DNA from: Patescibacteria group bacterium
Lineage (GTDB): Bacteria; Patescibacteriota; Minisyncoccia; Phycocordibacterales; SBAW01
Assembly (NCBI GenBank): GCA_016176685.1
Contig: JACOWS010000006.1
Coordinates: forward strand, 1 to 61,188
DNA length: 61,188 bases
Reading direction: 5' to 3'
Position 1 is the stretch's first letter; each line of letters starts with the position of its first letter. Position numbers and translations under genes: made by a program. A model generated the notes under the pieces. The model worked only from the letters and a program-made list of their open reading frames with translations. It made no database searches and was not told where the DNA came from. Shown in pieces: positions 5,032 through 61,188 of this stretch.

Positions 5032-5445
5032 CTAAATCCCGTTCTGCTTAGTGTAGTTACGTTGCATCATTCCCGCCGCTTTCTTCATGCCGAGATCTTC
5101 ATAAAATACCTGCAGTTCAGTGTCGCACAGGAGATCAATCATATAGAATTCTTTGAGCACCAACAGCATTCGAGTAACGAGCTCTTTACCAATCCCTCGC
5201 TTTTGATATTCAGGCAACACTTCGAGAAAAGGAATGTACGCCGCCAGATGCTTATCAGTTATAGCAGTGGCAAACCCGACAACTTTTTTGCTTTGTGGAT
5301 CTAATGCAAGCAGAACATAATCACTATCACGAAGCAACTCCAAATGGCGAGCGGGAGTGGGTGGATTCTGCCACCCCACAAAAAATCCCTGCAAGTCATT
5401 CTCTTTAACATTTTCCAACGATGAAATAAATTCGATGTTACCCAT
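5032..5445 (-). CDS. GNAT family N-acetyltransferase
   Basis: Acetyl-CoA binding motif VLPEYQKRGIGKELV and FYEDLG. Confidence 0.88.
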   Translation of the reverse strand: MGNIEFISSLENVKENDLQGFFVGWQNPPTPARHLELLRDSDYVLLALDPQSKKVVGFATAITDKHLAAYIPFLEVLPEYQKRGIGKELVTRMLLVLKEFYMIDLLCDTELQVFYEDLGMKKAAGMMQRNYTKQNGI

Positions 5446-11782: not shown

Positions 11783-13369
11783 ATGCAATTGAAGATTTCT
11801 GTAAACATTTTGACCTCGCGGGCCATTCAGGCCGGACTCTTGGTATGGCATAGCGCTCTGCGCGTGGGCTTCTGGAAGATAGGTGCCGCGGTGCTGGGCC
11901 TCTTGCTTGGTATAAACGCGGCCGGCCACCTGTTTGGTGCTACAAAAGCCGAACAAGCGGCCACCGACGTGCGCACCGTCTCGGTGCGCACGGTGGCCGA
12001 CCTCGTCAACGAAGGCGAGCCGCTCTCGGTCGCCGGCACGGTAAGTTCCAAGTCGGAAGCATCCGTGCTTGTGCAAAAAACGGGCGGCGTGGTCGGTGTG
12101 TACCATCAGCTCGGCGACTACGTTTCCGCCGGAAGCATTATTGCAGAAATCGACAGTGCGTCCGAGCGCGCGGCCTTGGCGCAGGCGCAGGGGTTGCTTG
12201 ATGCCGCGCGTGCCTCTGGCGGCATTTCGGACACATCTCTCGCCGCCGCGCAAAGTGGTGCCGTAAACACGCTCCTTGCCACCTACGCTATCGTCGACAA
12301 CGCCGTGCGCGGCGGCATAGACCCGATGTTTTCAAACCCAGAAACGGTATACCCGCAATTTAGCGTCCTAAGCTCAAACTCACAGGTAAAAATAGATATA
12401 GAGAACGGGCGCGTGGCACTTTCCCCCCTGCTCGCGCGCGAGCAGGCGCGGGCTACTACACTGGTAAATACCGACGAGCTTGCGGCGGAGCTTGCCGCGA
12501 CCGCAGGAGAGGTGCGTGTAGTGCGTGACTTTTTGGACCAGGTGATTATCACGCTCAACAACGGCATCCCGGCAAACAACATTAGTGCCGCCACCATTGC
12601 TTCGTACAAAGCAACCGCTTCTGCGGCTCGCAGTGCGGTCACCGCGGCGCTCTCCTCGCTCACCGGAGCACAGCAGACACTCACCACGGCAGAGCAAAAC
12701 GCCACCGGCGGGGCCGCCATGTCATCCTCGGCGGGCGCACTGCTTGCGCAAGCACAAGCGGGGCTCAAGGCGGCGGAGATAAATCTTGAAAAAACGCTGA
12801 TACGCGCATCTATTGCCGGCACTATCAACTCGCTTTCGCTCAAGCGGGGCGACTTTGTACAGGCATTTACACCGGCCGCCTCTATCGCCAATAACAATGC
12901 CCTGGAGGTGGTGCTGTATGTAACCGAGGGAGACTCTCGCAACATCCGCGTTGGCGCCAAAGCAATAGTACATGCAGGAAATGGAGCAACTCTTAACGGA
13001 ACGATAACGCGTATTGCGCCGGCACTAGACCCGCTGACAAAAAAAATAGAGGTGCGCGTCGCGGTGGCGGACGAGGCGCACCTGCTCATCAATGGACAGT
13101 CAGTGCTCCTTGCCATTGCCCGCACGCTTGCAACCCCTACGTCCGCGACCTCCCTACCCATCATCATACCCATTGCCGCACTTAAAATCGGCGCCGACGG
13201 CACCAAGATATTTACGGTGAGTGCGAGCTCTAGCGCGGTGGCGCACTCGGTTACGATTGGAGCGCTCCTGGGCGACAAAGTGACCATCAAGGAGGGCCTG
13301 ACTCTCGACATGGAAATAGTGACCGATGCGCGAGGCCTGCAAGACGGCGAGCGGGTATTGGTGCTCTAA
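11783..13369 (+). CDS. RND efflux periplasmic adaptor (HlyD/MFP family) with long helical insert
   Basis: Lipoyl half-motifs VGDYVSAGSIIAEI and IRASIAGTINSLSLKRGDFV; beta-barrel GTITRIAPALDPLTKKIEV; upstream of the AcrB-like gene. Confidence 0.88.
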   Translation: MQLKISVNILTSRAIQAGLLVWHSALRVGFWKIGAAVLGLLLGINAAGHLFGATKAEQAATDVRTVSVRTVADLVNEGEPLSVAGTVSSKSEASVLVQKTGGVVGVYHQLGDYVSAGSIIAEIDSASERAALAQAQGLLDAARASGGISDTSLAAAQSGAVNTLLATYAIVDNAVRGGIDPMFSNPETVYPQFSVLSSNSQVKIDIENGRVALSPLLAREQARATTLVNTDELAAELAATAGEVRVVRDFLDQVIITLNNGIPANNISAATIASYKATASAARSAVTAALSSLTGAQQTLTTAEQNATGGAAMSSSAGALLAQAQAGLKAAEINLEKTLIRASIAGTINSLSLKRGDFVQAFTPAASIANNNALEVVLYVTEGDSRNIRVGAKAIVHAGNGATLNGTITRIAPALDPLTKKIEVRVAVADEAHLLINGQSVLLAIARTLATPTSATSLPIIIPIAALKIGADGTKIFTVSASSSAVAHSVTIGALLGDKVTIKEGLTLDMEIVTDARGLQDGERVLVL

Positions 13370-13381
13370 CCTTCCCCGCCT

Positions 13382-16300
13382 ATGCTCCCCCTTTGGAAAT
13401 TTTTTATAGAAAAGAGGCAGTTCACCATACTGCTTATGTTGGTGCTCTTAGCGTGGGGCAGCGTCGCTACGATACGCATCACCAAAGAGTCTGCTCCGGA
13501 GGTGCAAATACCGGTTGGCATTGTTACCACCGCATTACCGGGTGCCTCCGCGGAAGACATAGAAAAGCTGGTCACCAACAAGCTTGAGCAGAACCTTACC
13601 AGTCTTACCAACCTGGAAAAGCTTACCTCCACCTCTCGCGACGGCGTCTCGGTTATTGTTGCCGAGTTTAGTGCCTCCGCAAACCTAAACCAGTCTATTC
13701 AAGACCTCAAGGACCAAGTAGACAAAGTAAGAGGCGACCTGCCCGCCGATGCCACCGACCCGTCGGTTACCGACGTCAACTTTGTCGACCAGCCGATACA
13801 AATTATCTCCATTACCGCTGACCTGCCATTTGCAAAGTTTGCGGAACTCGGGGAGGAGGTAAAAAATGAGCTGCAGACGGTCCGCGGCGTCTCCAAGGTA
13901 ACTGTTTCCGGCGTGCGCAACCGAGAGATAAACGTTGTGGTCAAAAAAGAGCAGATAGCGCGGTACGGCATTTCCCTTTCGCAGGTGGTTGCGGCCATCT
14001 CGTCCGCAAATGCCTCACTGCCCGTTGGTGCCATCACCGTTGGGAACATCTCCTACAACATTGCGTTTGAAGGAGGTCTCGACACCGTGAGCGCCTTCCA
14101 TAGCATCCCCCTCCTACTGGCCAGCAACCAGGTGGTGTATTTGCGCGACATTGCCGACGTGTCCGACGGAGTAGAAAAAGCGACCTCATACTCGCGGGTA
14201 GCCATAGGGAAAAATCCCAGCCGCCAAGCACTGACGCTTGCGGTGTTTAAAACACACGGGCAAGACGTAACCACTACTACAGGGGGCGTTAAACAAAAAC
14301 TGGACGAACTTACAAACACGCTCCTGCGAGGAAGCGAGATTGTTATTACCTATGACACCGGCGAGGAGGTGGCGAAAGACCTCTATGAACTTACCCGTAC
14401 CGGCATCATTACCATGACCCTGGTTATGCTCGTGCTCTTTGCCACACTCGGTTGGCGCGAGGCGCTGGTGGCGGGTATGTCAGTCCCTTTCTCTTTTCTT
14501 ATCGCGTTTGTGGGGCTCTGGTACTCCGGCAACACGTTTAATTTTGTTTCCCTCTTCTCTCTCATTCTTGCTATCGGCATTTTGGTTGACTCGGGCATCG
14601 TGGTGGTCGAGGCCATACACACCCGAGTTAGGATTTTTGGCGACAAAAAAAAGGCGGCCATACAAGCGCTCGAGGAGTACGCATGGCCACTTATCGGCGG
14701 CACGATGACAACCGTTGCGGTGTTTATACCGCTCTTTTTTATCTCTGGTATTGTAGGCAAATTTATCGCCTCCATCCCCTACACGGTTATCTTTGTGCTT
14801 ATGGCGAGCATCTTCGTGGCGCTGGGGTTTGTTCCTATGTGGGCGATGCTATGTACCTCCACCGGGCGCTCGCCGCTTACCGACCGGCAGGAGCAGTATA
14901 CGGAAAAAATGCGGGTGTGGTACACACAAAAACTCGGCTTATTTTTCAAAAACCGCGCCGCGCAAAACCGCTTTTTGGTCGCTATCTTTGCGAGCTTTAT
15001 ACTTGCGGTACTCCTCCCCATTACCGGCATCATAAAAGTAAACTTTTTTCCGCAGGACGACTCCGACTTTTTGTACGTCGATATCGAGCTCCCCGTCGGT
15101 ACAGAGCTTGAGACAAGCGACCTTTCGGCACGCCAGGTGGAAGAGGCGTTGTATGGCCTTGCGGATGCAGACTCAACCATCACCAGTGTGGGCAACACCA
15201 GTTCATTCGGCAACAACCCGCAAAGCGGCGCGCGGTACGCCAATGTAACCATCAATCTTGCGGCGGACCGCGCACACTCTTCAACCGACATACTCGCCGA
15301 GGTGCAGACTCGTCTCAAAAATATCCACAGCGCAACCATCCGCGCGGGGCAGCCCTCGGGCGGGCCGCCGGTCGGCGCACCCATACTCATACAATTTTTC
15401 GGGCAAGATAGAGACGCGCTTGACCAGGCGCTCTTAGAAGCACAAAGAGCACTGCAAAAAATTTCCGGAATCATCAACATCGACCCGTCAAACAAAAACG
15501 ACGGTACCGAGTTTATCCTCCGCATAAACCGCGACAAAGTGGCGGCGCTGGGGCTCACACCGCAAGCGGTTGCCTTGACCTTGCGCACGGCTATTGCCGG
15601 CTCCAAAGCAACCACGCTAGTGGGCGGCGAGCGCGATGTAAACCTCATGGTCTCACTCAACCTCAACCCTGTGTACACCGACCCGCACGACGCCTCGCGC
15701 GTGTCTCTAGATGCAATACACCAGATACCGATACAAACACCGTCCGGCGCAAGTGTGCTCCTTGGGTCGGTGCTGGAGTCGAGTATCGGGCGCAGTGATG
15801 CGGTTATCAACCACGAAAATCGCCAGCGCGTTGCTTCCATTTCTACCAACCTAGAGGCCCCGCTCACCACGGCAGAAGCCATTGAACAGTTCAACAAAAA
15901 TATGGCGGGCGTAGAGCTGCCGAAAGGGGTAACGATGAAAATCGGCGGAGAAAACGAACAGACTAACCGGTCGTTTGCAGAGATGGGTTTTGCTTTGGTC
16001 GCCGGGTTGGCGCTCATGTTTGTGATATTGGTGCTTGCCTTCAACTCCTTCCGATTTACCACTTACCTGCTTTCCGTCGTGCCGCTTTCGCTCATAGGAG
16101 TCTTTGGCGGGCTGGCGCTCACGGGCCAGGCACTTTCGTTTTCTTCTCTGCTTGGCATCATCGCACTGGCCGGGGTCATAATCAACCACGCCATTATTCT
16201 TATGGACGCTATCATCAAGCGCATGCGGGCAAGCGCCGGGTATGCCTTAAGCGACATCGTGGTTGACGCGGCAGTCTCTCGGCTGCGCCCTATTGTCCTT

Positions 16301-16492
16301 ACCACCGTCACTACCGTTATCGGCATGATTCCGCTCACGACAGTCTCCGCTCTGTGGGGGCCGCTGGCGTTCGCAATACTCTTTGGCCTTTCGTTTGCAA
16401 TGATACTCACACTCGTACTTATCCCCACACTGGTCTACCGCTGGCCTGGAAAATTACCGAGCAACGTTACGCGCGGGGAATACATTTTATAA
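13382..16492 (+). CDS. RND efflux permease (AcrB/AcrD/AcrF family)
   Basis: 1036 aa, 12-TM architecture; LAIGILVDSGIVVVE, GVIINHAIILMD and RLRPIVLTTVTT. Confidence 0.95.
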   Translation: MLPLWKFFIEKRQFTILLMLVLLAWGSVATIRITKESAPEVQIPVGIVTTALPGASAEDIEKLVTNKLEQNLTSLTNLEKLTSTSRDGVSVIVAEFSASANLNQSIQDLKDQVDKVRGDLPADATDPSVTDVNFVDQPIQIISITADLPFAKFAELGEEVKNELQTVRGVSKVTVSGVRNREINVVVKKEQIARYGISLSQVVAAISSANASLPVGAITVGNISYNIAFEGGLDTVSAFHSIPLLLASNQVVYLRDIADVSDGVEKATSYSRVAIGKNPSRQALTLAVFKTHGQDVTTTTGGVKQKLDELTNTLLRGSEIVITYDTGEEVAKDLYELTRTGIITMTLVMLVLFATLGWREALVAGMSVPFSFLIAFVGLWYSGNTFNFVSLFSLILAIGILVDSGIVVVEAIHTRVRIFGDKKKAAIQALEEYAWPLIGGTMTTVAVFIPLFFISGIVGKFIASIPYTVIFVLMASIFVALGFVPMWAMLCTSTGRSPLTDRQEQYTEKMRVWYTQKLGLFFKNRAAQNRFLVAIFASFILAVLLPITGIIKVNFFPQDDSDFLYVDIELPVGTELETSDLSARQVEEALYGLADADSTITSVGNTSSFGNNPQSGARYANVTINLAADRAHSSTDILAEVQTRLKNIHSATIRAGQPSGGPPVGAPILIQFFGQDRDALDQALLEAQRALQKISGIINIDPSNKNDGTEFILRINRDKVAALGLTPQAVALTLRTAIAGSKATTLVGGERDVNLMVSLNLNPVYTDPHDASRVSLDAIHQIPIQTPSGASVLLGSVLESSIGRSDAVINHENRQRVASISTNLEAPLTTAEAIEQFNKNMAGVELPKGVTMKIGGENEQTNRSFAEMGFALVAGLALMFVILVLAFNSFRFTTYLLSVVPLSLIGVFGGLALTGQALSFSSLLGIIALAGVIINHAIILMDAIIKRMRASAGYALSDIVVDAAVSRLRPIVLTTVTTVIGMIPLTTVSALWGPLAFAILFGLSFAMILTLVLIPTLVYRWPGKLPSNVTRGEYIL

Positions 16493-46578: not shown

Positions 46579-46898
46579 GAAGTGCCTTGGCTTGCTTTGG
46601 TAGCCGAGGCGATGCACTTCAAAATCGAAACTAGGGAGAATGATTATGGCTCATTTCCACGGACCCCCGATGAGTTCAATCAGCATCAATAACCGGGCCG
46701 TCATCCGCAACTGACCACTGGTGATCGGCCGCGCCATTAAGCAGGCGCAACAGGCTGATTTGGTCCTTTCAACAGGGAGTACGTTTCGCCATGAAGACCC
46801 TTCACGGCAGATTCACCCGGGCTGAGTAGTTTTCTCAGCCAGGTTTTCGATGTTCGTTCCCCGGGGTCCCGCTGCACTTCGCAGTCGGGGCCCTTTTT
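46579..46898 (+). other. self-contained ~320-nt transcription unit (sRNA or interrupted small ORF)
   Basis: TTGACA(46549)-N16-TAGTAT promoter, 5' hairpin, SD AGGGAG, ORF 46646-46825 with internal TGA at 46712, terminator 46864-46898. Confidence 0.5.
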
Positions 46899-46900
46899 AT

Positions 46901-46929
46901 TTGCACATATCACTCTGCCTTGCTATACT
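46901..46929 (+). promoter_or_regulatory. rpsA promoter
   Basis: TTGCAC-N17-TATACT with extended TGn. Confidence 0.7.
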
Positions 46930-47014
46930 GCCTGGCAATAAAGGGCTTGTCCTTTTATTAGAAAGCGCGAGAGTAACTCCCGACCTGGGACCCTCGCCTT
47001 ACAACCACATATAT

Positions 47015-48139
47015 ATGACAGCAAAAACACCGGCCGTATTGGATACGGTAACGTCTTTAGACGCAACCCAAGAGGCCCCCTCGCTTATGGCGGGGTTTGT
47101 TGAGCGCTCGGCGCAGCCGCCTAAAGAGGGCGACCTTGTCGAGGGCAAGGTTATAATGCTCGACCGCGCGCGGGTTTACATCGACCTGCCGCCCTTTGGC
47201 ACCGGCATCATTTATGGCCGCGAGTACCTTAACGCGCGCGAGGTTATCAAGCGCACCAACCCGGGCGACATCATTGCCGCCAAAGTGGTTGACGTTAACT
47301 CAAAAGAGGGATACATCGAACTATCGCTCAAAGAGGCGCGTCAGGCGCTCTTGTGGGGCGAGGCCGAAGAGGCGCTCAAAAACAAAACGCAGTTTGAACT
47401 GCCGGTCAAAGAGGCTAACAAAGGCGGACTCATTTTGGAGTGGCAAGGTATTGCCGGTTTCCTCCCCGCCTCGCAACTCAAAGCCGAGCACTACCCGCGC
47501 GTCTTGGACGGCGACAAAGACAAAATACTCGACGAGCTGCGCAAGCTGGTGGGCGAAAAGTTTACGGTTTCTATCATCTCGGCAACTCCGAAGGAAGGCA
47601 AACTTATTTTTTCTGAAAAAGGGCTGGATGACAAAGAAAAGCGCGACCTCATCGCCGGCTACCAGGTTGGCGCCGTTTTGGAGGGCGAGGTCACCGGCAT
47701 GGTGGACTTCGGCGCATTTGTAAAATTGGAAGAGGGGCTCGAGGGTTTGGTACACATTTCCGAAATCGACTGGGGCCTGGTAGACGACCCGCGGCACTTC
47801 TTTAAAGTCGGAGACAAAGTGACGGTCAAAATAATAGACATAAAAGAGGGCAAGGTCTCGCTTTCGGTCAAACAGCTCAAAGAAAATCCGTGGACCATTG
47901 CCGCCGACAAATACAAAAAAGGCGACAAGGTGGAGGGGGTGGTTATAAAGTACAACAAGCATGGCGCCCTGGCCTCTATAGAAGAAGGCATAGCCGGCCT
48001 GGTGCACGTGAGCGAGTTTGGCGGCGAGGAAAAGTTGCACCAAAATCTCGAACTTGGAAAGCGCTACCCATTTACTATTTCCCTCTTTGAGCCAAAAGAG
48101 ATGCGCATGGCGCTTGCCTTTTCCGGAGAAAAGAAATAG
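47015..48139 (+). CDS. rpsA: 30S ribosomal protein S1 (four S1 domains)
   Basis: Repeated S1 motifs (GFLPASQL, DFGAFVKL..GLEGLVHISEI, GLVHVSEF); start MTAKT at 47015. Confidence 0.92.
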   Translation: MTAKTPAVLDTVTSLDATQEAPSLMAGFVERSAQPPKEGDLVEGKVIMLDRARVYIDLPPFGTGIIYGREYLNAREVIKRTNPGDIIAAKVVDVNSKEGYIELSLKEARQALLWGEAEEALKNKTQFELPVKEANKGGLILEWQGIAGFLPASQLKAEHYPRVLDGDKDKILDELRKLVGEKFTVSIISATPKEGKLIFSEKGLDDKEKRDLIAGYQVGAVLEGEVTGMVDFGAFVKLEEGLEGLVHISEIDWGLVDDPRHFFKVGDKVTVKIIDIKEGKVSLSVKQLKENPWTIAADKYKKGDKVEGVVIKYNKHGALASIEEGIAGLVHVSEFGGEEKLHQNLELGKRYPFTISLFEPKEMRMALAFSGEKK

Positions 48140-48163
48140 GGAGTAAAAAATAAATAAAGATAT

Positions 48164-48198
48164 ACCCGCCTTAAGCTAGCTCAAGGCGGGTGCTTTTT
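48164..48198. terminator. terminator between rpsA and the response regulator
   Basis: ACCCGCCTT/AAGGCGGGT stem followed by GCTTTTT. Confidence 0.75.
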
Positions 48199-48217
48199 GC
48201 GTGTGGGCGGGACAATG

Positions 48218-48907
48218 CTATGCGGCGGTATGTTGTTGTTTTTTCTGACCGCGCAGTATGTACCCATAGCCCCAGACTGTCTCTGGGATAGTGGTTCCTC
48301 CGGCTTCGATAATTTTTTGCCGTATACGGAACACCAGCGTATCAAGCGCACGGGAGTCTGGCTCCCTTTCGCTGTTGTAGAGGTGTAGGAACACACCCGT
48401 CTTGGCGACCATCTCCCTCCTCAACATAAGCAGCCTGAGAAAAGAGTATTCTTTCGGACGTAGAGGCACCTCGGTGCCAAGTACCTTAAATGTTCTCGTT
48501 GTAAGGTTAATGGAAAGGTCTCCAACAACTACAAGCGGGGTTGCGTGACCATGAGCACGGCGTATCATCGCACGCAAACGCGCCATTAGCTCGTCCATGT
48601 CCGGAATGCGGTCCATACAATCGTCGGCTCCGCTGTCGAGAAACTCTTTCCGCTCCATTGGCCCGCCATCCACCAAAACAATTACCATAATAGATAACTT
48701 GCGTATGCGTGCGGTGCGTACCGTTTGGATGCTTGACAGATCAGCGGTAATGACACCGACTACCAACACATCAAACCCGCACAGCTTGGCGGCGCTGAGT
48801 GCATCCTCCCCGCTTTCCGTTATGTAGGAATACTCGCCATCCTCTCGAATAGAGTTACCGATGGCCTTAGCGACAGTTGGGTCGCTTTCTGCAACAATAA
48901 CGCGCAT
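48218..48907 (-). CDS. orphan OmpR-family, CtrA-like response regulator with degenerate receiver
   Basis: SD GGAGGT before MRVIVAESD; GADDC; RRAHGHA; HLYNSEREPD; ETVWGYGYILR; phospho-Asp position reads Gly. Confidence 0.82.
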   Translation of the reverse strand: MRVIVAESDPTVAKAIGNSIREDGEYSYITESGEDALSAAKLCGFDVLVVGVITADLSSIQTVRTARIRKLSIMVIVLVDGGPMERKEFLDSGADDCMDRIPDMDELMARLRAMIRRAHGHATPLVVVGDLSINLTTRTFKVLGTEVPLRPKEYSFLRLLMLRREMVAKTGVFLHLYNSEREPDSRALDTLVFRIRQKIIEAGGTTIPETVWGYGYILRGQKKQQHTAA

Positions 48908-48983
48908 TGCTCTACCTCCATGAGACAGTTTGAAGAACATAAACACTAATGCAGAAACTACCGCAAAACGCCTGGAGTTACAA

Positions 48984-49514
48984 CTACCGCGTATTGGTGG
49001 CGGTCATGGCAGGTGCCAGACCATCGGCCAGTAGCAGTGCGAGCGCTTCTTTGACCGTCTTTTTTACCTTTTTGAGTTTGTCGCGCTCTGCGGGTTTAAA
49101 TTGCCCGAGCACAAAGTCCACCACCTTTTTTGCGTCCGGCTTTTTGAGTTTGCCTCCCGGGGTGGTTGGACAAATCCCCACCCGCACGCGCACAAAGTCG
49201 CGCGTTTTTAATGCCTTTATTATAGACTCCACGCCGCGGTGGCCGCCGGAGCCGGAGCCAAACGAAAGTTTTACGCTCCCCAGCGGCAGGTCTAGGTCGT
49301 CATGGACCACCACCAGGCGCTCTGCGGCTTTTGGGGATGGCACCGCTTTTTTTATGGGGCCGCCAGAGTGGTTCATATAGACGTCAAGGTCCAATATTTT
49401 CGGTTTTCCGGGCAAGTCATTTGCCAGCGCATGCAAAAAGTCGCGCCCGACGTTGTGCCGGCTCCCTGTATACTCCTGCCCCGGGTTGCCGAGGCCCGCC
49501 AACATCCATTGCAT
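48984..49514 (-). CDS. pth: peptidyl-tRNA hydrolase
   Basis: GLGNPGQEYTGSRHNVG, YMNHSG, VVHDDLDL and GGHRGVES; start at 49514. Confidence 0.94.
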   Translation of the reverse strand: MQWMLAGLGNPGQEYTGSRHNVGRDFLHALANDLPGKPKILDLDVYMNHSGGPIKKAVPSPKAAERLVVVHDDLDLPLGSVKLSFGSGSGGHRGVESIIKALKTRDFVRVRVGICPTTPGGKLKKPDAKKVVDFVLGQFKPAERDKLKKVKKTVKEALALLLADGLAPAMTATNTR

Positions 49515-49571
49515 GTGTTGTACTGTAGCAAAAAACTTGCATAGGTGCACCAAGCCGGTACAATGGTGTGT

Positions 49572-50129
49572 ATGCAGGAAGAGTCTCGTGAGAATTTCTT
49601 TATCGAGCTCCTCAAATTTGCTCTCATCGCGGTTGTTATAGTCGTCCCGGTGCGGCTCTATGTTGCACAACCTTTTATTGTATCCGGCGCCTCTATGGAG
49701 CCGACCTTCGACAACGGACAATACCTTATTGTCGACGAGCTTTCCTACCGGCTGGAAGATCCGAGTCGCGGTGATGTCATAATTTTCCGTCCGCCCGGGC
49801 AATCCAATGGAACCTACTTTATAAAACGGGTCATCGGCTTGCCCGGCGAGACAGTACGCATTACCGACAGCGCGGTTTCTATCACCTCCATAGACGGCAT
49901 ACGGACAGAGCTCGACGAGTGGTACATAAAAAACATCGGCAACGGCAAAACGATGCAGGTTGCACTGGGGAAAGATGAATACTTTGTCATGGGTGACAAT
50001 CGGCCGGAAAGTTCCGACTCGCGCTACTGGGGAGTACTCCCGCGAGGAAACATTATCGGACGCGCACTATTTCGGCTCTTGCCGCTACAAAGTATCAGTA
50101 TCTTGCCCGGAAGTACGTCGTTTAAATAA
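49572..50129 (+). CDS. lepB: signal peptidase I
   Basis: SGASMEPTF (Ser), FIKRVIGLPGE (Lys) and GDNRPESSDSR. Confidence 0.95.
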   Translation: MQEESRENFFIELLKFALIAVVIVVPVRLYVAQPFIVSGASMEPTFDNGQYLIVDELSYRLEDPSRGDVIIFRPPGQSNGTYFIKRVIGLPGETVRITDSAVSITSIDGIRTELDEWYIKNIGNGKTMQVALGKDEYFVMGDNRPESSDSRYWGVLPRGNIIGRALFRLLPLQSISILPGSTSFK

Positions 50130-50146: not shown

Positions 50147-51307
50147 ATGAGCCCTACACGAACCTCGCCCGTTTCCTTTTTAAAACTGTCGAGCGATGTT
50201 GCCTCTTTTTACGGGTTCCGCCCCATGCGCGAAGTTGAGCGTGCCTCGGCGGGAGCGTGGAAAAACCGCGAGCGTCCGCGCGCGCGCGCGACGCACACGT
50301 TCGACGCGGCTGCTGCAATGTGCGCGGCAAGCGCGTCGGTCTCCCAAGGCGAGCCGGTGCTCGCCTATTATGCAACTCCCTCCCCTTCGCCGCTTCCTCT
50401 CGGCTCCATAGTTCAAGAAGTCGGCGAGTTTGGACTCCAAGCGGTCGGCACGAGCGAGAGCGTCGGGGAAATTATTTTGCTCAAAACACTCTCTACCATT
50501 TTTGCCGAGTGGGGGACGCCGCCCACGCGCGTGCGGGTAAATGCGCTAGGCGACCGCGAGTCACAGCAACGGTTTGCCCGCGAGCTTTCCATACACGTGC
50601 GCAAGCATGCAAACCGCCTTCTCGCCGAGCACCGCGCCGCCATTATGGAAAACCCGATGCTTTTGTATCGTATAGAAGCGCCCGAACATCAGGAACTGCG
50701 CGCCGAAGCGCCGCACTCGCTCACCTACCTTTCCGAAAAGAGCCGCGCATACTTTCGCTCGATGCTCGAGCACTTGGAGGTTCTCGACATTCCGTGGGAG
50801 ATTGACGACTCGCTGGTGGGCGACCCGCGCGCGCCGCACGTTGCATTTGCACTCGACTTTGCCGAAGGAGACACCACTATTATCGCGGCCATGGGAGGGC
50901 GCTTCGACGACTACCTGCGCGAGCGCGCACAACGCAAAGACAGCACCGGGGTCGGCGCAAGTATTTTTTTTCGCAAAAAGGGCGCCTCGGCAAAAAACTT
51001 TGCAACATCCGTCGTAAAACAAAAACCAAAAATTTATTTTGCACAATTGGGAATCAAAGCCAAACTCCAGGGGCTTAAGGTGGTAGACCATCTGCGCAAG
51101 GCGCGCGTGCCGGTGATGCAGACATTCGAGGCCGCACACCTCTCCTCGCAGCTCACAACGGCGCGCGCGCTGGACGTGCAGTACCTGTTTATAATGGGCC
51201 AGCGCGAGGCCATCGACAGCACGGTGCTCGTGCGCTCAATGGACAACGGCGTCCAGGTGACTTTGTCCATACACGAGATTCCGCGGTTTTTGAGGACCTT
51301 GCGATAG
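50147..51307 (+). CDS. degenerate HisRS/HisZ-like protein with anticodon-binding domain
   Basis: GGRFDDY...GVGASI motif-3-like segment and C-terminal HGTP domain (YLFIMGQRE...VLVRSM); motifs 1 and 2 are eroded. Confidence 0.7.
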   Translation: MSPTRTSPVSFLKLSSDVASFYGFRPMREVERASAGAWKNRERPRARATHTFDAAAAMCAASASVSQGEPVLAYYATPSPSPLPLGSIVQEVGEFGLQAVGTSESVGEIILLKTLSTIFAEWGTPPTRVRVNALGDRESQQRFARELSIHVRKHANRLLAEHRAAIMENPMLLYRIEAPEHQELRAEAPHSLTYLSEKSRAYFRSMLEHLEVLDIPWEIDDSLVGDPRAPHVAFALDFAEGDTTIIAAMGGRFDDYLRERAQRKDSTGVGASIFFRKKGASAKNFATSVVKQKPKIYFAQLGIKAKLQGLKVVDHLRKARVPVMQTFEAAHLSSQLTTARALDVQYLFIMGQREAIDSTVLVRSMDNGVQVTLSIHEIPRFLRTLR

Positions 51308-57330: not shown

Positions 57331-57858
57331 ATGAAAGGTAAAAATGTAGAAGAACGTCTTAAAGATTACGCCGATATACGCTCAAAGGCACTAAAAATTT
57401 ATAATACTTTTGGGAAAGTTAACTGTCCCGCCCTCGGTGGTTATGTCCACTTCACTTCAGAAGGGTTCAACCATCTAGTTTACGGAAGGGCTAAAAAAGA
57501 ACGGGATAAGAGGGCACAAATCGCTAGGTTTGATATGCTAGAGAAAGCAAAGTTCATTCTTGAAGAATCAACTACTTTTCAAGAATACGACGAAGCTATT
57601 GAGTATGTGAGGGTAAACCGACATGGCAAGTATGTTGGTATGAATGCCATAGTACGGTGTTGGGGGTTTGTCGCTATCGTAAGAAAATTTCGTCTAAAAG
57701 TGGTCGTGGTACAGGTTGGTAATGGAAAAATGGAATTTCAGAGCGTTAGACCTGCTTGGTTTATAAAACAATACAGAGACATAAAATTGGTGCAGACCTC
57801 AACAGGAGCAGGTCTTTTAGGTGACGATGATGATGAGGTACTAAAAAACACCACATAA
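57331..57858 (+). CDS. putative BECR-fold (LPD3/PBECR-like) ribonuclease
   Basis: VNCPALGGYVHFTSEGFNHL...R...STTFQEY...WGFVAIV...KVVV...GNG...F.SV.P; a spot count gave 33% GC. The family call is from pattern recall only. Confidence 0.6.
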   Translation: MKGKNVEERLKDYADIRSKALKIYNTFGKVNCPALGGYVHFTSEGFNHLVYGRAKKERDKRAQIARFDMLEKAKFILEESTTFQEYDEAIEYVRVNRHGKYVGMNAIVRCWGFVAIVRKFRLKVVVVQVGNGKMEFQSVRPAWFIKQYRDIKLVQTSTGAGLLGDDDDEVLKNTT

Positions 57859-61128: not shown

Positions 61129-61188
61129 ATGCAAAAACGAACATTAATCCAAATTAAGAAAGCCCTTCAAGAACTCTCGAAAAAAGGG
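61129..61188 (+). CDS. 5' end of an unidentified CDS (runs off window)
   Basis: ATG 61129 opens MQKRTLIQIKKALQELSKKG with no stop before the edge. Confidence 0.4.
   Translation, partial: MQKRTLIQIKKALQELSKKG

What the first reader, a model, noticed from the sequence alone, without database searches (positions are those of the whole stretch)
48218..48907. Orphan CtrA-like regulator that cannot be phosphorylated
SEEN: a 229-aa OmpR-type protein with a strong SD, no adjacent kinase, wedged between rpsA and pth. Motifs RRAHGHA, FLHLYNSEREPD and ETVWGYGYILR parallel my recollection of alphaproteobacterial CtrA (RRSKGHA, FLNHLYGGMDEPE, ETVWGRGYVLR). The phospho-acceptor position reads DVLVVGV (Asp to Gly), the acidic pocket is ESD, and the conserved Lys-Pro is Arg-Ile. 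KNOWN: CtrA is the master cell-cycle, flagellum and pilus regulator of Alphaproteobacteria. INFERENCE: a horizontally acquired, phosphorylation-independent CtrA derivative in a probable episymbiont, either repurposed internally or a host-directed mimic.
Basis: partly seen in the sequence, partly recalled or inferred. Interest (0 to 1): 0.75.

Follow-up and report, generated by a model that had tools for sequence, protein, structure and literature searches.

The report
Kinase-less CtrA-like regulator in CPR bacterium
A tiny groundwater bacterium of the candidate phyla radiation carries a regulator related to CtrA, the cell-cycle master switch of Alphaproteobacteria, that has lost every residue needed for phosphorylation yet is still kept by selection; related genomes hold intact, truncated or no copies at the same chromosomal spot.

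Summary
Window 48218-48907 (minus strand) encodes a 229-aa OmpR-type regulator with a GGAGG ribosome-binding site, no kinase nearby, between rpsA and pth. It has Gly at the phospho-acceptor position, and three more of the five catalytic receiver residues are replaced.

It belongs to the CtrA-like branch. The NCBIfam CtrA model is best by 70 bits, but at 153 bits it is far below the 350-bit cut-off. It separates from generic OmpR-type regulators with 100/99 support. It shares 14 of 29 CtrA-specific columns and keeps the CtrA-style C-terminal Ala-Ala.

It is not a pseudogene. dN/dS is about 0.2 in both domains, and the predicted fold is intact (pLDDT 90).

The host is a Paceibacteria (CPR) bacterium from groundwater. 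In 70 related genomes the rpsA/pth gap is variable. CtrA-like genes occur in 13, all within one clade of 34. One is canonical and 57-60% identical to alphaproteobacterial CtrA. The others lack the Asp, have only one domain, or are degenerate. This supports transfer from Alphaproteobacteria followed by decay of the phosphorylation module.

It most likely works as a phosphorylation-independent transcription factor, like ChxR or HP1043. A host-directed mimic role has no support. Targets are unknown.

The parts
48218..48907 (-). CDS of the 229-aa CtrA-like atypical response regulator (P0001), stop codon included
   Evidence: Orthologs P0002 (79% identity) and P0003 (72%) start at the same Met.
48554..48907 (-). 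Pseudo-receiver domain, residues 1-118, with a (beta-alpha)5 fold. The catalytic residues read E7, S8, G51, V79 and R100.
   Evidence: Pfam Response_reg scores 21.9 bits, below the gathering cut-off. AF2 pLDDT is above 90 with all five strands and helices. The domain superposes on the CtrA receiver 4qpj_C at TM 0.91 and rmsd 1.5 A. dN/dS is 0.22-0.28.
48755..48757 (-). Codon GGT, Gly51, at the phospho-acceptor Asp position
   Evidence: Read from the sequence and from the alignments. P0002 and P0003 also have Gly; P0115 has Ser.
48248..48535 (-). Winged-helix DNA-binding domain, residues 125-220. The recognition helix is about residues 185-201 and the wing about 207-219.
   Evidence: Pfam Trans_reg_C E = 6e-11. 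AF2 secondary structure. dN/dS is 0.13-0.23. CtrA-specific columns L162, R163, K169, L176, Y177, E182, P183 and W212 are retained.
48221..48244 (-). Disordered C-terminal tail, residues 222-229, ending in Ala-Ala (a CtrA-style candidate ClpXP degron)
   Evidence: pLDDT is 41. The -AA end is conserved in P0001-3. The -AA end occurs in 42/145 CtrA-like against 2/115 generic OmpR-type proteins.
48915..48919 (-). Shine-Dalgarno GGAGG, 7 nt upstream of the ATG
   Evidence: Conserved in L001 and L003.
48955..48983 (-). Candidate own promoter, TTGTAA-17 nt-TAGTTT, starting right after the pth stop codon
   Evidence: Hexamers and spacing are identical in three orthologous loci whose spacers differ. 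It is too weak for the consensus scanner, which found no promoter. This is an inference.
48933..48949 (-). Conserved 5'-UTR element TTAGTGTTTATGTTCTT, a possible operator of unknown role
   Evidence: Conserved in window, L001 and L003. The pattern gives 4 hits against 0.57 expected at up to 2 mismatches. Weak evidence.
48164..48191 (-). Intrinsic-terminator hairpin (12 bp, 7 GC) between the convergent regulator and rpsA
   Evidence: Equivalent hairpins follow the gene in L001 and L003.
48984..49505 (-). pth (peptidyl-tRNA hydrolase), the upstream neighbour that defines one side of the slot
   Evidence: Pfam Pept_tRNA_hydro. The same arrangement is seen in L001, L008, L009 and 71 genome loci.
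47015..48139 (+). rpsA (S1), the convergent neighbour that defines the other side of the slot
   Evidence: Pfam S1. 81% and 80% identical to the relatives L008 and L009.

Best explanation
The gene encodes a functional, phosphorylation-independent transcription factor of the CtrA-like branch of the OmpR/PhoB family. It is resident in a Paceibacteria (CPR) chromosome.

Origin (inferred): a ctrA-type gene came from an alphaproteobacterium into the variable gap between pth and rpsA of an Adlerbacteria-like clade. Without its phosphorelay, the receiver lost its catalytic residues and became a structural pseudo-receiver.

Mechanism (inferred): the pseudo-receiver still folds and keeps the alpha4-beta5-alpha5 signature (GADD...EL.AR..A..RR). 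This should let the protein dimerise constitutively and place two winged helices on repeated DNA sites, as ChxR and HP1043 do. Activity would then be set by protein amount. Two features fit this: its own promoter and terminator, and probably proteolysis through the exposed C-terminal Ala-Ala tail inherited from CtrA.

The DNA target probably differs from TTAA-N7-TTAA.

Shown here: family placement, loss of catalytic residues, purifying selection, intact predicted fold, and slot distribution. Inferred: dimerisation, control by proteolysis, direction of transfer, and regulon.
For: Family placement:
- The CtrA model is best for this protein and all its relatives.
- In an exhaustive phmmer search, 143 of the 150 best cluster representatives fall in the CtrA-like clade.
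- ML trees split CtrA-like from generic OmpR-type proteins at 100/99 support.
- The protein shares 14 of 29 CtrA-specific columns. Generic proteins share a mean of 2.7 and at most 6.

Loss of phosphorylation chemistry:
- S8, G51, V79 and R100 replace catalytic residues.

Still functional:
- Three intact orthologs have dN/dS of 0.20-0.23. The receiver gives 0.22-0.28 and the DNA-binding domain 0.13-0.23.
- AF2 gives pLDDT 90 and pTM 0.80. The whole model matches DNA-bound PmrA at TM 0.87-0.90.

Dimer-face residues:
- G93, D95, D96, E106, A109, R110 and R116 are invariant across 46 typical and atypical regulators.

Degron:
- The -AA end is conserved and is a CtrA-clade hallmark. CtrA's C-terminal 15 residues are a direct ClpXP degron (bioRxiv 10.1101/301606).

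Origin:
- The L015 slot protein is canonical (D51, S, KP) and 57-60% identical to CtrA of Parvularcula, Martelella and Microvirga.
- CtrA-like slot occupants are found in 13/34 genomes of one clade and 0/36 outside it (Fisher p = 2e-5).
- The relative L009 has an empty slot.

Precedent:
- Atypical orphan OmpR-type regulators that dimerise without phosphorylation are known (PMC12632262).
Against: - No binding site, target gene or expression data exist.
- TTAA-N7-TTAA is not enriched in the window (3 sites against 1.4 expected).
- Three of four recognition-helix positions that I recall as specificity-determining in PhoB differ from CtrA (from memory, not tested).
- Whether the genome has ClpX/ClpP, or any kinase or Hpt protein, could not be checked because the genome search was shut.
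- The protein evolves 2-5 times faster than its neighbours (dN/dS 0.20 against 0.04-0.09). Relatives show truncation and loss, so constraint may be weakening.
- Common descent of all slot occupants is marginally rejected by the AU test (p = 0.03), so more than one transfer is possible.
- The backbone of the CtrA-like clade is unresolved and most members lack taxonomy, so the direction of transfer is not proven.
Confidence: 0.6

Rival explanations
1. The pseudo-receiver is still a sensor. It takes a non-phosphoryl input that switches DNA binding, for example a small ligand, a partner protein, or redox through the conserved Cys43 and Cys97. RitR, Hp1021 and Rem/MirA work in this way.
For: The receiver half is under purifying selection as strong as the DNA-binding half (dN/dS 0.22-0.28), which argues for more than a passive scaffold. 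Cys43 and Cys97 are conserved in P0001-3. Redox and partner-controlled atypical regulators are documented (PMC12632262).
Against: Selection on the receiver is equally explained by a dimerisation role. Cys at position 97 also occurs in CtrA-like proteins that keep Asp51 (P0121, P0208). No partner gene is conserved beside it.
Confidence: 0.2
2. It is a regulator in decline. The gene was stranded after transfer without its phosphorelay, has little or no remaining function, and is on its way to truncation or loss, as seen in sister genomes.
For: The same slot holds receiver-only ORFs (L012, L013, L016, L036), DNA-binding-domain-only ORFs (L008, L020, L021, L023, L042), or nothing (27 genomes). The protein evolves 2-5 times faster than its neighbours. 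Only three close ortholog clusters exist among 5.8 billion proteins.
Against: dN/dS of about 0.2 holds over dS of 0.65-0.97 with no frameshift or stop in three lineages. The SD, promoter-like hexamers and terminator are conserved. The predicted fold is confident.
Confidence: 0.12
3. It is a host-directed mimic. The protein is exported into an alphaproteobacterial host, where it competes with host CtrA.
For: Only circumstantial evidence exists. The protein has CtrA ancestry, CPR bacteria are thought to live on the surface of host cells, and T4SS-pilin-like genes occur in the window and in relatives.
Against: There is no signal peptide or recognisable secretion signal; residue 2 begins strand beta1. 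The recognition helix has diverged from CtrA. The gene sits among housekeeping genes, not with secretion genes. No host is known.
Confidence: 0.03

Closest known systems
CtrA, the cell-cycle response regulator of Alphaproteobacteria (NCBIfam NF045991)
   Same: It is the best-scoring family (153 bits against 84 for the next). The protein groups with CtrA-like proteins at 100/99 support and shares 14 of 29 CtrA-specific columns. Shared motifs include the RR..GHA linker, LY..EP, the W in ETVWG.GY, and a C-terminal Ala-Ala on a disordered tail. It has the same length and domain order.
   Different: The score is far below the 350-bit cut-off, and identity to canonical CtrA is only 33-36%. It lies outside the canonical subclade. 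Asp51, the second acidic residue, Ser/Thr79, Lys-Pro and the switch Tyr are all replaced. The recognition helix has diverged. The host is a CPR bacterium, and CtrA boxes are not enriched.
ChxR (Chlamydia trachomatis) and HP1043/HsrA (Helicobacter pylori), atypical orphan OmpR/PhoB regulators
   Same: All are orphan OmpR-type regulators in small genomes whose receivers lack phosphorylation chemistry. ChxR and HP1043 are known to be constitutive dimers that bind DNA repeats without phosphorylation (PMC12632262). HP1043 (2hqr) appears among the sequence and fold matches, and a ChxR-family structure (3q9v) among the sequence matches.
   Different: They belong to other branches of the family and have no CtrA signature or AA tail. 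Dimerisation and DNA binding have not been tested for this protein.
Asp-less CtrA-like paralogs in Alphaproteobacteria and metagenomes (for example Plastoroseomonas hellenica WP_211887785.1, cluster P0128)
   Same: They belong to the CtrA-like clade, have Gly at position 51, have lost Lys-Pro, and end in AA. About 60 of the 150 best cluster representatives lack Asp51.
   Different: Identity is only about 33%, and they sit in a separate subclade. They keep a near-canonical CtrA recognition helix. As far as I found, they are uncharacterised.
Slot homolog in Parcubacteria group bacterium Gr01-1014_56 (L015, P0403)
   Same: It occupies the same chromosomal slot in the same orientation, in the relative with the closest RpsA among 80 genomes (85%). 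It is CtrA-like and ends in AA.
   Different: It keeps Asp51, Ser and Lys-Pro. It scores 271 bits on the CtrA model and is 57-60% identical to real CtrA, but only 28% identical to the window protein.

Membership tests
CtrA equivalog (NCBIfam NF045991) | Whole-protein score at or above the curated cut-off of 350 bits | tested here: not met
   153.1 bits. A true CtrA control, P0122, scores 419 bits.
CtrA equivalog (NCBIfam NF045991) | Phospho-acceptor Asp51 together with the acidic pair, Ser/Thr and Lys of a working receiver | tested here: not met
   G51, S8, V79 and R100.
CtrA equivalog (NCBIfam NF045991) | Placement inside the canonical CtrA subclade | tested here: not met
   The protein is inside the CtrA-like group but outside the 14-15-member canonical subclade.
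CtrA equivalog (NCBIfam NF045991) | Recognition of TTAA-N7-TTAA boxes in target promoters | tested here: inconclusive
   The 61-kb window has 3 sites against 1.4 expected; 15 of 100 shuffles reach 3. L015 has none. Binding itself is not testable here.
CtrA equivalog (NCBIfam NF045991) | CckA-ChpT phosphorelay and ClpXP control encoded in the same genome | not testable with these tools
   The whole-genome search was shut. No kinase was found in the 30 window ORFs scanned.
CtrA-like branch of OmpR/PhoB regulators (broad sense) | Closer to CtrA than to any other OmpR-type family by profile score and by phylogeny | tested here: met
   153 bits against 84. Split from generic types at 100/99 support. 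14 of 29 signature columns shared, against at most 6 in generic proteins.
CtrA-like branch of OmpR/PhoB regulators (broad sense) | C-terminal Ala-Ala on an exposed tail | tested here: met
   The protein ends ...HTAA and the tail has pLDDT 41. The AA end occurs in 42/145 CtrA-like against 2/115 generic proteins. Whether it works as a degron is untested.
OmpR/PhoB-type response regulator (receiver plus winged helix) | Trans_reg_C domain above the Pfam cut-off | tested here: met
   42.6 bits against a cut-off of 26.2.
OmpR/PhoB-type response regulator (receiver plus winged helix) | Receiver domain recognisable by sequence or fold | tested here: met
   Pfam gives 21.9 bits, below the 30.2 cut-off. 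The AF2 model has a full (beta-alpha)5 fold and superposes on receiver structures at TM 0.84-0.91.
Atypical response regulator with an aspartate-less pseudo-receiver (as defined in PMC12632262) | Lacks the phosphorylated Asp or another of the five catalytic residues | tested here: met
   Four of the five are replaced, and this is conserved in the orthologs.
Atypical response regulator with an aspartate-less pseudo-receiver (as defined in PMC12632262) | Activity independent of phosphorylation (constitutive dimer, DNA binding) | not testable with these tools
   The alpha4-beta5-alpha5 signature residues are retained. That is only indirect evidence.

The most novel reading that the evidence does not exclude
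CtrA-family regulators entered one clade of Paceibacteria from alphaproteobacterial hosts. In genomes such as this one the regulator has become a phosphorylation-independent master regulator of division or surface-appendage genes, controlled by proteolysis. If so, the gene would mark the host lineage of these episymbionts and would be the first candidate cell-cycle regulator in CPR bacteria. The slot series (canonical, Asp-less, single-domain, absent) would be a natural record of how a response regulator evolves once cut off from its kinase.
Probability: 0.12. Interest if true: 0.75.

Novelty: new member of a known kind. Interest (0 to 1): 0.45.

Why it matters
Aspartate-less orphan OmpR-type regulators are a known class, so the mechanism proposed here is not new.

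Three things are new. CtrA is treated as a hallmark of Alphaproteobacteria, and I found no paper linking it to Patescibacteria. Here CtrA-like genes sit in a fixed slot in a CPR clade, and one is 57-60% identical to real CtrA.

That points to gene flow from Alphaproteobacteria into these ultrasmall bacteria. Because their hosts are mostly unknown, the transfer gives a testable hint about who the hosts are.

The same slot also shows, side by side in related genomes, every stage from an intact receiver to pseudo-receiver, single domain and loss. This is useful material for the open question of how pseudo-receivers arise and what keeps them (PMC12632262).

Tried and rejected
- **Regulator scan of genome contigs.** A scan with the regulator alignment A2 found no relative, so the window's own genome is not in that collection. 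I used the second scan on RpsA instead.
- **Whole-genome search.** The search for kinases, Hpt, ClpX and ClpP could not be run because the tool was shut.
- **CtrA-box scan.** There is no enrichment in the window and no site in L015.
- **Consensus promoter scanner.** It finds no promoter upstream. The TTGTAA-17-TAGTTT proposal rests only on conservation in three loci.
- **Conserved 5'-UTR motif.** My first pattern had the wrong spacing and found nothing. The corrected pattern gave 4 hits against 0.57 expected, but the extra hits lie inside ORFs or at the window end, so I dropped it.
- **Phage origin.** tblastn against 50,697 phage records gave only generic hits of 28% identity or less over the full length. 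Rejected.
- **Names for the nearest CtrA-like neighbours.** Few cluster members carry names. The context of P0208 was uninformative.
- **Best-scoring hits to L015.** P0404-P0407 turned out to be CtrA chimeras with internal duplications, not CPR relatives.
- **Monophyly of slot occupants.** It could not be shown. The AU test gives p = 0.03 against it, and the group was named after the tree was seen.
- **GC content.** It gives no transfer signal: the gene is 52.2% GC and the window 52.9%.
- **lepB rate comparison.** The comparison used wrong coordinates and is discarded.

Full report
**1. The observation**

The minus-strand ORF 48218-48907 encodes 229 aa. The longest ORF starts at a GTG 39 nt upstream. 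The ATG at 48907 is the real start for four reasons:
- GGAGG lies 7 nt before it.
- That stretch is conserved in two orthologous loci.
- All homologs begin MR(V/I).
- In the predicted structure, strand beta1 begins at residue 2.

Pfam finds the winged-helix Trans_reg_C domain (42.6 bits). The receiver scores only 21.9 bits, under the 30.2 cut-off.

Alignment with CtrA-like proteins puts Gly51 at the phospho-acceptor position. It also shows E7-S8 for the acidic pair, Val79 for Ser/Thr, Arg100-Ile101 for Lys-Pro, and Cys97 for the switch Tyr. By the definitions in PMC12632262 this is an aspartate-less pseudo-receiver in an atypical response regulator.

The neighbours are housekeeping genes: gyrA, an MBL-fold gene and rpsA on one side, then pth, lepB, a hisS-like gene, S21, ybeY, ftsA and ftsZ on the other. 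No kinase was found among the 30 window ORFs scanned.

**2. Which family**

Against NCBIfam the CtrA model scores 153 bits and the next family, PmrA, scores 84. The curated CtrA cut-off is 350, so the protein is not an equivalog. A true CtrA control scores 419.

An exhaustive phmmer search of 1.84 billion cluster representatives returned CtrA-like proteins as the best hits. In a 260-sequence FastTree, 143 of the 150 fall in one clade with the query, apart from 111 generic OmpR-type hits.

Two careful IQ-TREE runs (LG+C20 PMSF) split CtrA-like from generic proteins at 100/99 support. The query group comprises P0001-3, then P0115, then P0208. It lies inside the CtrA-like side but outside the canonical CtrA subclade, and the backbone is unresolved.

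I also built a column test. Of 29 columns that separate canonical CtrA from generic regulators, the query has the CtrA residue in 14. Generic proteins have a mean of 2.7 and a maximum of 6. Canonical CtrA has at least 21.

The protein and both close orthologs end in Ala-Ala. This ending occurs in 42/145 CtrA-like against 2/115 generic proteins. In Caulobacter the last 15 residues of CtrA are a direct ClpXP degron (10.1101/301606).

**3. Is it alive**

Only three close clusters exist among 5.8 billion proteins: P0001, P0002 (79%) and P0003 (72%). All three are intact and all have Gly51.

Nei-Gojobori dN/dS is 0.20-0.23 overall, 0.22-0.28 for the receiver and 0.13-0.23 for the DNA-binding domain, with dS of 0.65-0.97. 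Neighbouring genes give 0.04-0.09. The gene is therefore constrained but evolves faster than its neighbours.

AlphaFold2 with a 46-sequence alignment gives pLDDT 90 and pTM 0.80. The model has a complete (beta-alpha)5 receiver, a winged helix, and a disordered tail at 222-229. The receiver superposes on the CtrA receiver 4qpj_C (TM 0.91, rmsd 1.5 A). The whole model superposes on DNA-bound PmrA 4s04_A (TM 0.87-0.90). The domain arrangement in a prediction is not evidence of an active state.

Residues of the alpha4-beta5-alpha5 face (G93, D95, D96, E106, A109, R110, R116) are invariant across typical and atypical regulators in the alignment.

Upstream, TTGTAA-17-TAGTTT follows the pth stop codon in all three loci while the spacer varies. 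A terminator hairpin follows the gene. This suggests the gene has its own transcription unit.

**4. Organism and slot**

GyrA is 80-87% identical to proteins named Candidatus Pacebacteria, Adlerbacteria, Kaiserbacteria and Paceibacterota. The locus occurs in groundwater metagenomes.

The convergent rpsA/pth arrangement is conserved in 71 loci: 69 of the 80 named Paceibacteria loci fetched with RpsA, plus L008 and L009. The gap between the two genes ranges from 7 to about 3000 bp.

I searched the gap ORFs with a profile built from the CtrA-like set. Adding L008, CtrA-like genes occur in 13 of 70 scorable genomes:

| Type | Loci | Notes |
|---|---|---|
| Full length | window | Gly51 |
| Full length | L015 | canonical: Asp51, Ser, Lys-Pro, -IAA end |
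| Full length | L032 | Glu51, degenerate pocket |
| Full length | L019 | unrecognisable N-terminal half |
| DNA-binding domain only | L008, L020, L021, L023, L042 | L008 ends -VAA; L023 has two copies in tandem |
| Receiver only | L012, L013, L016, L036 | |

Of the other genomes, 27 have an empty gap, for example L009 with 36 bp by tblastn (30 bp between the called genes). The remaining 30 hold unrelated or unassigned cargo, such as a methyltransferase, an IS200-like transposase, a pilin and secreted proteins.

P0003 (L003) has the RpsA C-terminus downstream, and P0115 (L007) follows a pth C-terminus. Both therefore sit in the same slot.

On an RpsA tree all 13 occupants fall in one clade of 34, with none among the other 36 (Fisher p = 2e-5). 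Within that clade the state is scattered, needing 12 changes.

**5. Origin**

The L015 protein scores 271 bits on the CtrA model. It is 57-60% identical to CtrA of Parvularcula, Martelella, Microvirga and Methyloceanibacter, and it has no closer CPR relative. The four higher-scoring hits are chimeric CtrA sequences.

This is well above the 25-33% identity of the query to generic OmpR-type hits. Together with the clade-limited distribution, it supports transfer from Alphaproteobacteria.

Whether there was one transfer with very unequal later rates, or several, is open. Holding the slot proteins together costs 40 log-likelihood units (AU p = 0.03). The group was named after the tree was seen, and rate shifts after loss of function could mislead the model.

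GC content gives no signal. Another CtrA-like, Ser51 protein (P0130) sits at a different locus in another Parcubacteria MAG. About 60 of the 150 best representatives lack Asp51, including a paralog in the alphaproteobacterium Plastoroseomonas hellenica.

**6. How it most likely works**

The evidence supports a folded, selected DNA-binding protein that cannot carry out phosphotransfer. By analogy with ChxR, HP1043 and GlnR (PMC12632262), I infer two things. It dimerises constitutively through the retained alpha4-beta5-alpha5 face. It is regulated by abundance, through its own promoter and perhaps ClpXP acting on the AA tail.

The targets are unknown. TTAA-N7-TTAA is not enriched (3 sites against 1.4 expected). 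The recognition helix (SRALDTLVFRIRQKI against LKIIDVFICKLRKKL in CtrA) differs at positions I recall as base-contacting in PhoB. That recollection is a lead, not a test.

The rivals are:
- a pseudo-receiver that senses a ligand, a partner or redox (conserved Cys43 and Cys97);
- a regulator drifting towards loss;
- a host-directed mimic, for which nothing speaks beyond ancestry.

**7. Verdict**

This is a new member of the known class of aspartate-less orphan OmpR-type regulators. It derives from the CtrA branch and sits in a CPR genome.

The more interesting result lies outside the original coordinates. It is the clade-wide slot series and the near-canonical CtrA in a sister genome.

No paper in the library links CtrA with Patescibacteria. 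Earlier scan notes on this genome did not bear on this gene.

Noticed in passing
window 48140-48983; loci L008-L091 downstream of rpsA: The convergent rpsA/pth gap is a variable hot spot across Paceibacteria. The gap ranges from 7 to about 3000 bp. Unrelated cargo in different genomes includes a SAM methyltransferase (L063), an IS200/Y1-like transposase (L049), a pilin-like protein (L012) and Cys-rich secreted proteins (L073, L081).
   Followed up: partly
L008 4947-5881: The closest relative by GyrA (87%) carries in the slot a 155-aa ORF that looks MarR-like by eye (no Pfam hit on record). Next to it is a 129-aa receiver-less CtrA-like winged helix that still ends in -VAA.
   Followed up: partly
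L023, slot downstream of rpsA: Two DNA-binding-domain-only CtrA-like ORFs (104 and 117 aa) lie in tandem in one genome.
   Followed up: no
proteins P0128, P0005, P0144 and about 60 others: A large, diverse set of CtrA-like proteins in public data lack Asp51 (Gly, Asn, Ser or Glu instead). One is a paralog in the alphaproteobacterium Plastoroseomonas hellenica (WP_211887785.1). I found no description of them.
   Followed up: partly
L010 8001-8690 (GCA_028286615.1): Another Parcubacteria MAG has a CtrA-like regulator with Ser51 (248 bits on the CtrA model). It sits at a different locus and is also without an adjacent kinase. A single-domain receiver lies 5 kb away.
   Followed up: partly
proteins P0404-P0407: These database entries are CtrA sequences with internal duplications of receiver or C-terminal segments. 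They are probably assembly chimeras, and they outrank real CtrA in bit score.
   Followed up: yes
window 11783-16492: An AcrB-type RND transporter (1036 aa) with a HlyD-type adaptor lies in a CPR genome. Such pumps normally span a Gram-negative envelope.
   Followed up: no
window 50147-51307: A conserved 360-397-aa protein between lepB and S21 matches only the HGTP_anticodon domain, with no recognisable synthetase core. It is syntenic in L001, L008 and L009.
   Followed up: no
window 46850-48139 and 48984-49802: The longest ORFs of rpsA and pth overrun the likely starts. Relatives and alignment indicate 47015 for rpsA and 49505 for pth. A public gene call gives pth as 272 aa against 169-176 aa in relatives.
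   Followed up: partly
window 5311-5327, 57681-57697, 61137-61153: These are weak extra matches (2 mismatches) to the conserved 5'-UTR element TTAGNNNTWATGTTCTT of the regulator. In total there are 4 hits against 0.57 expected.
   Followed up: partly
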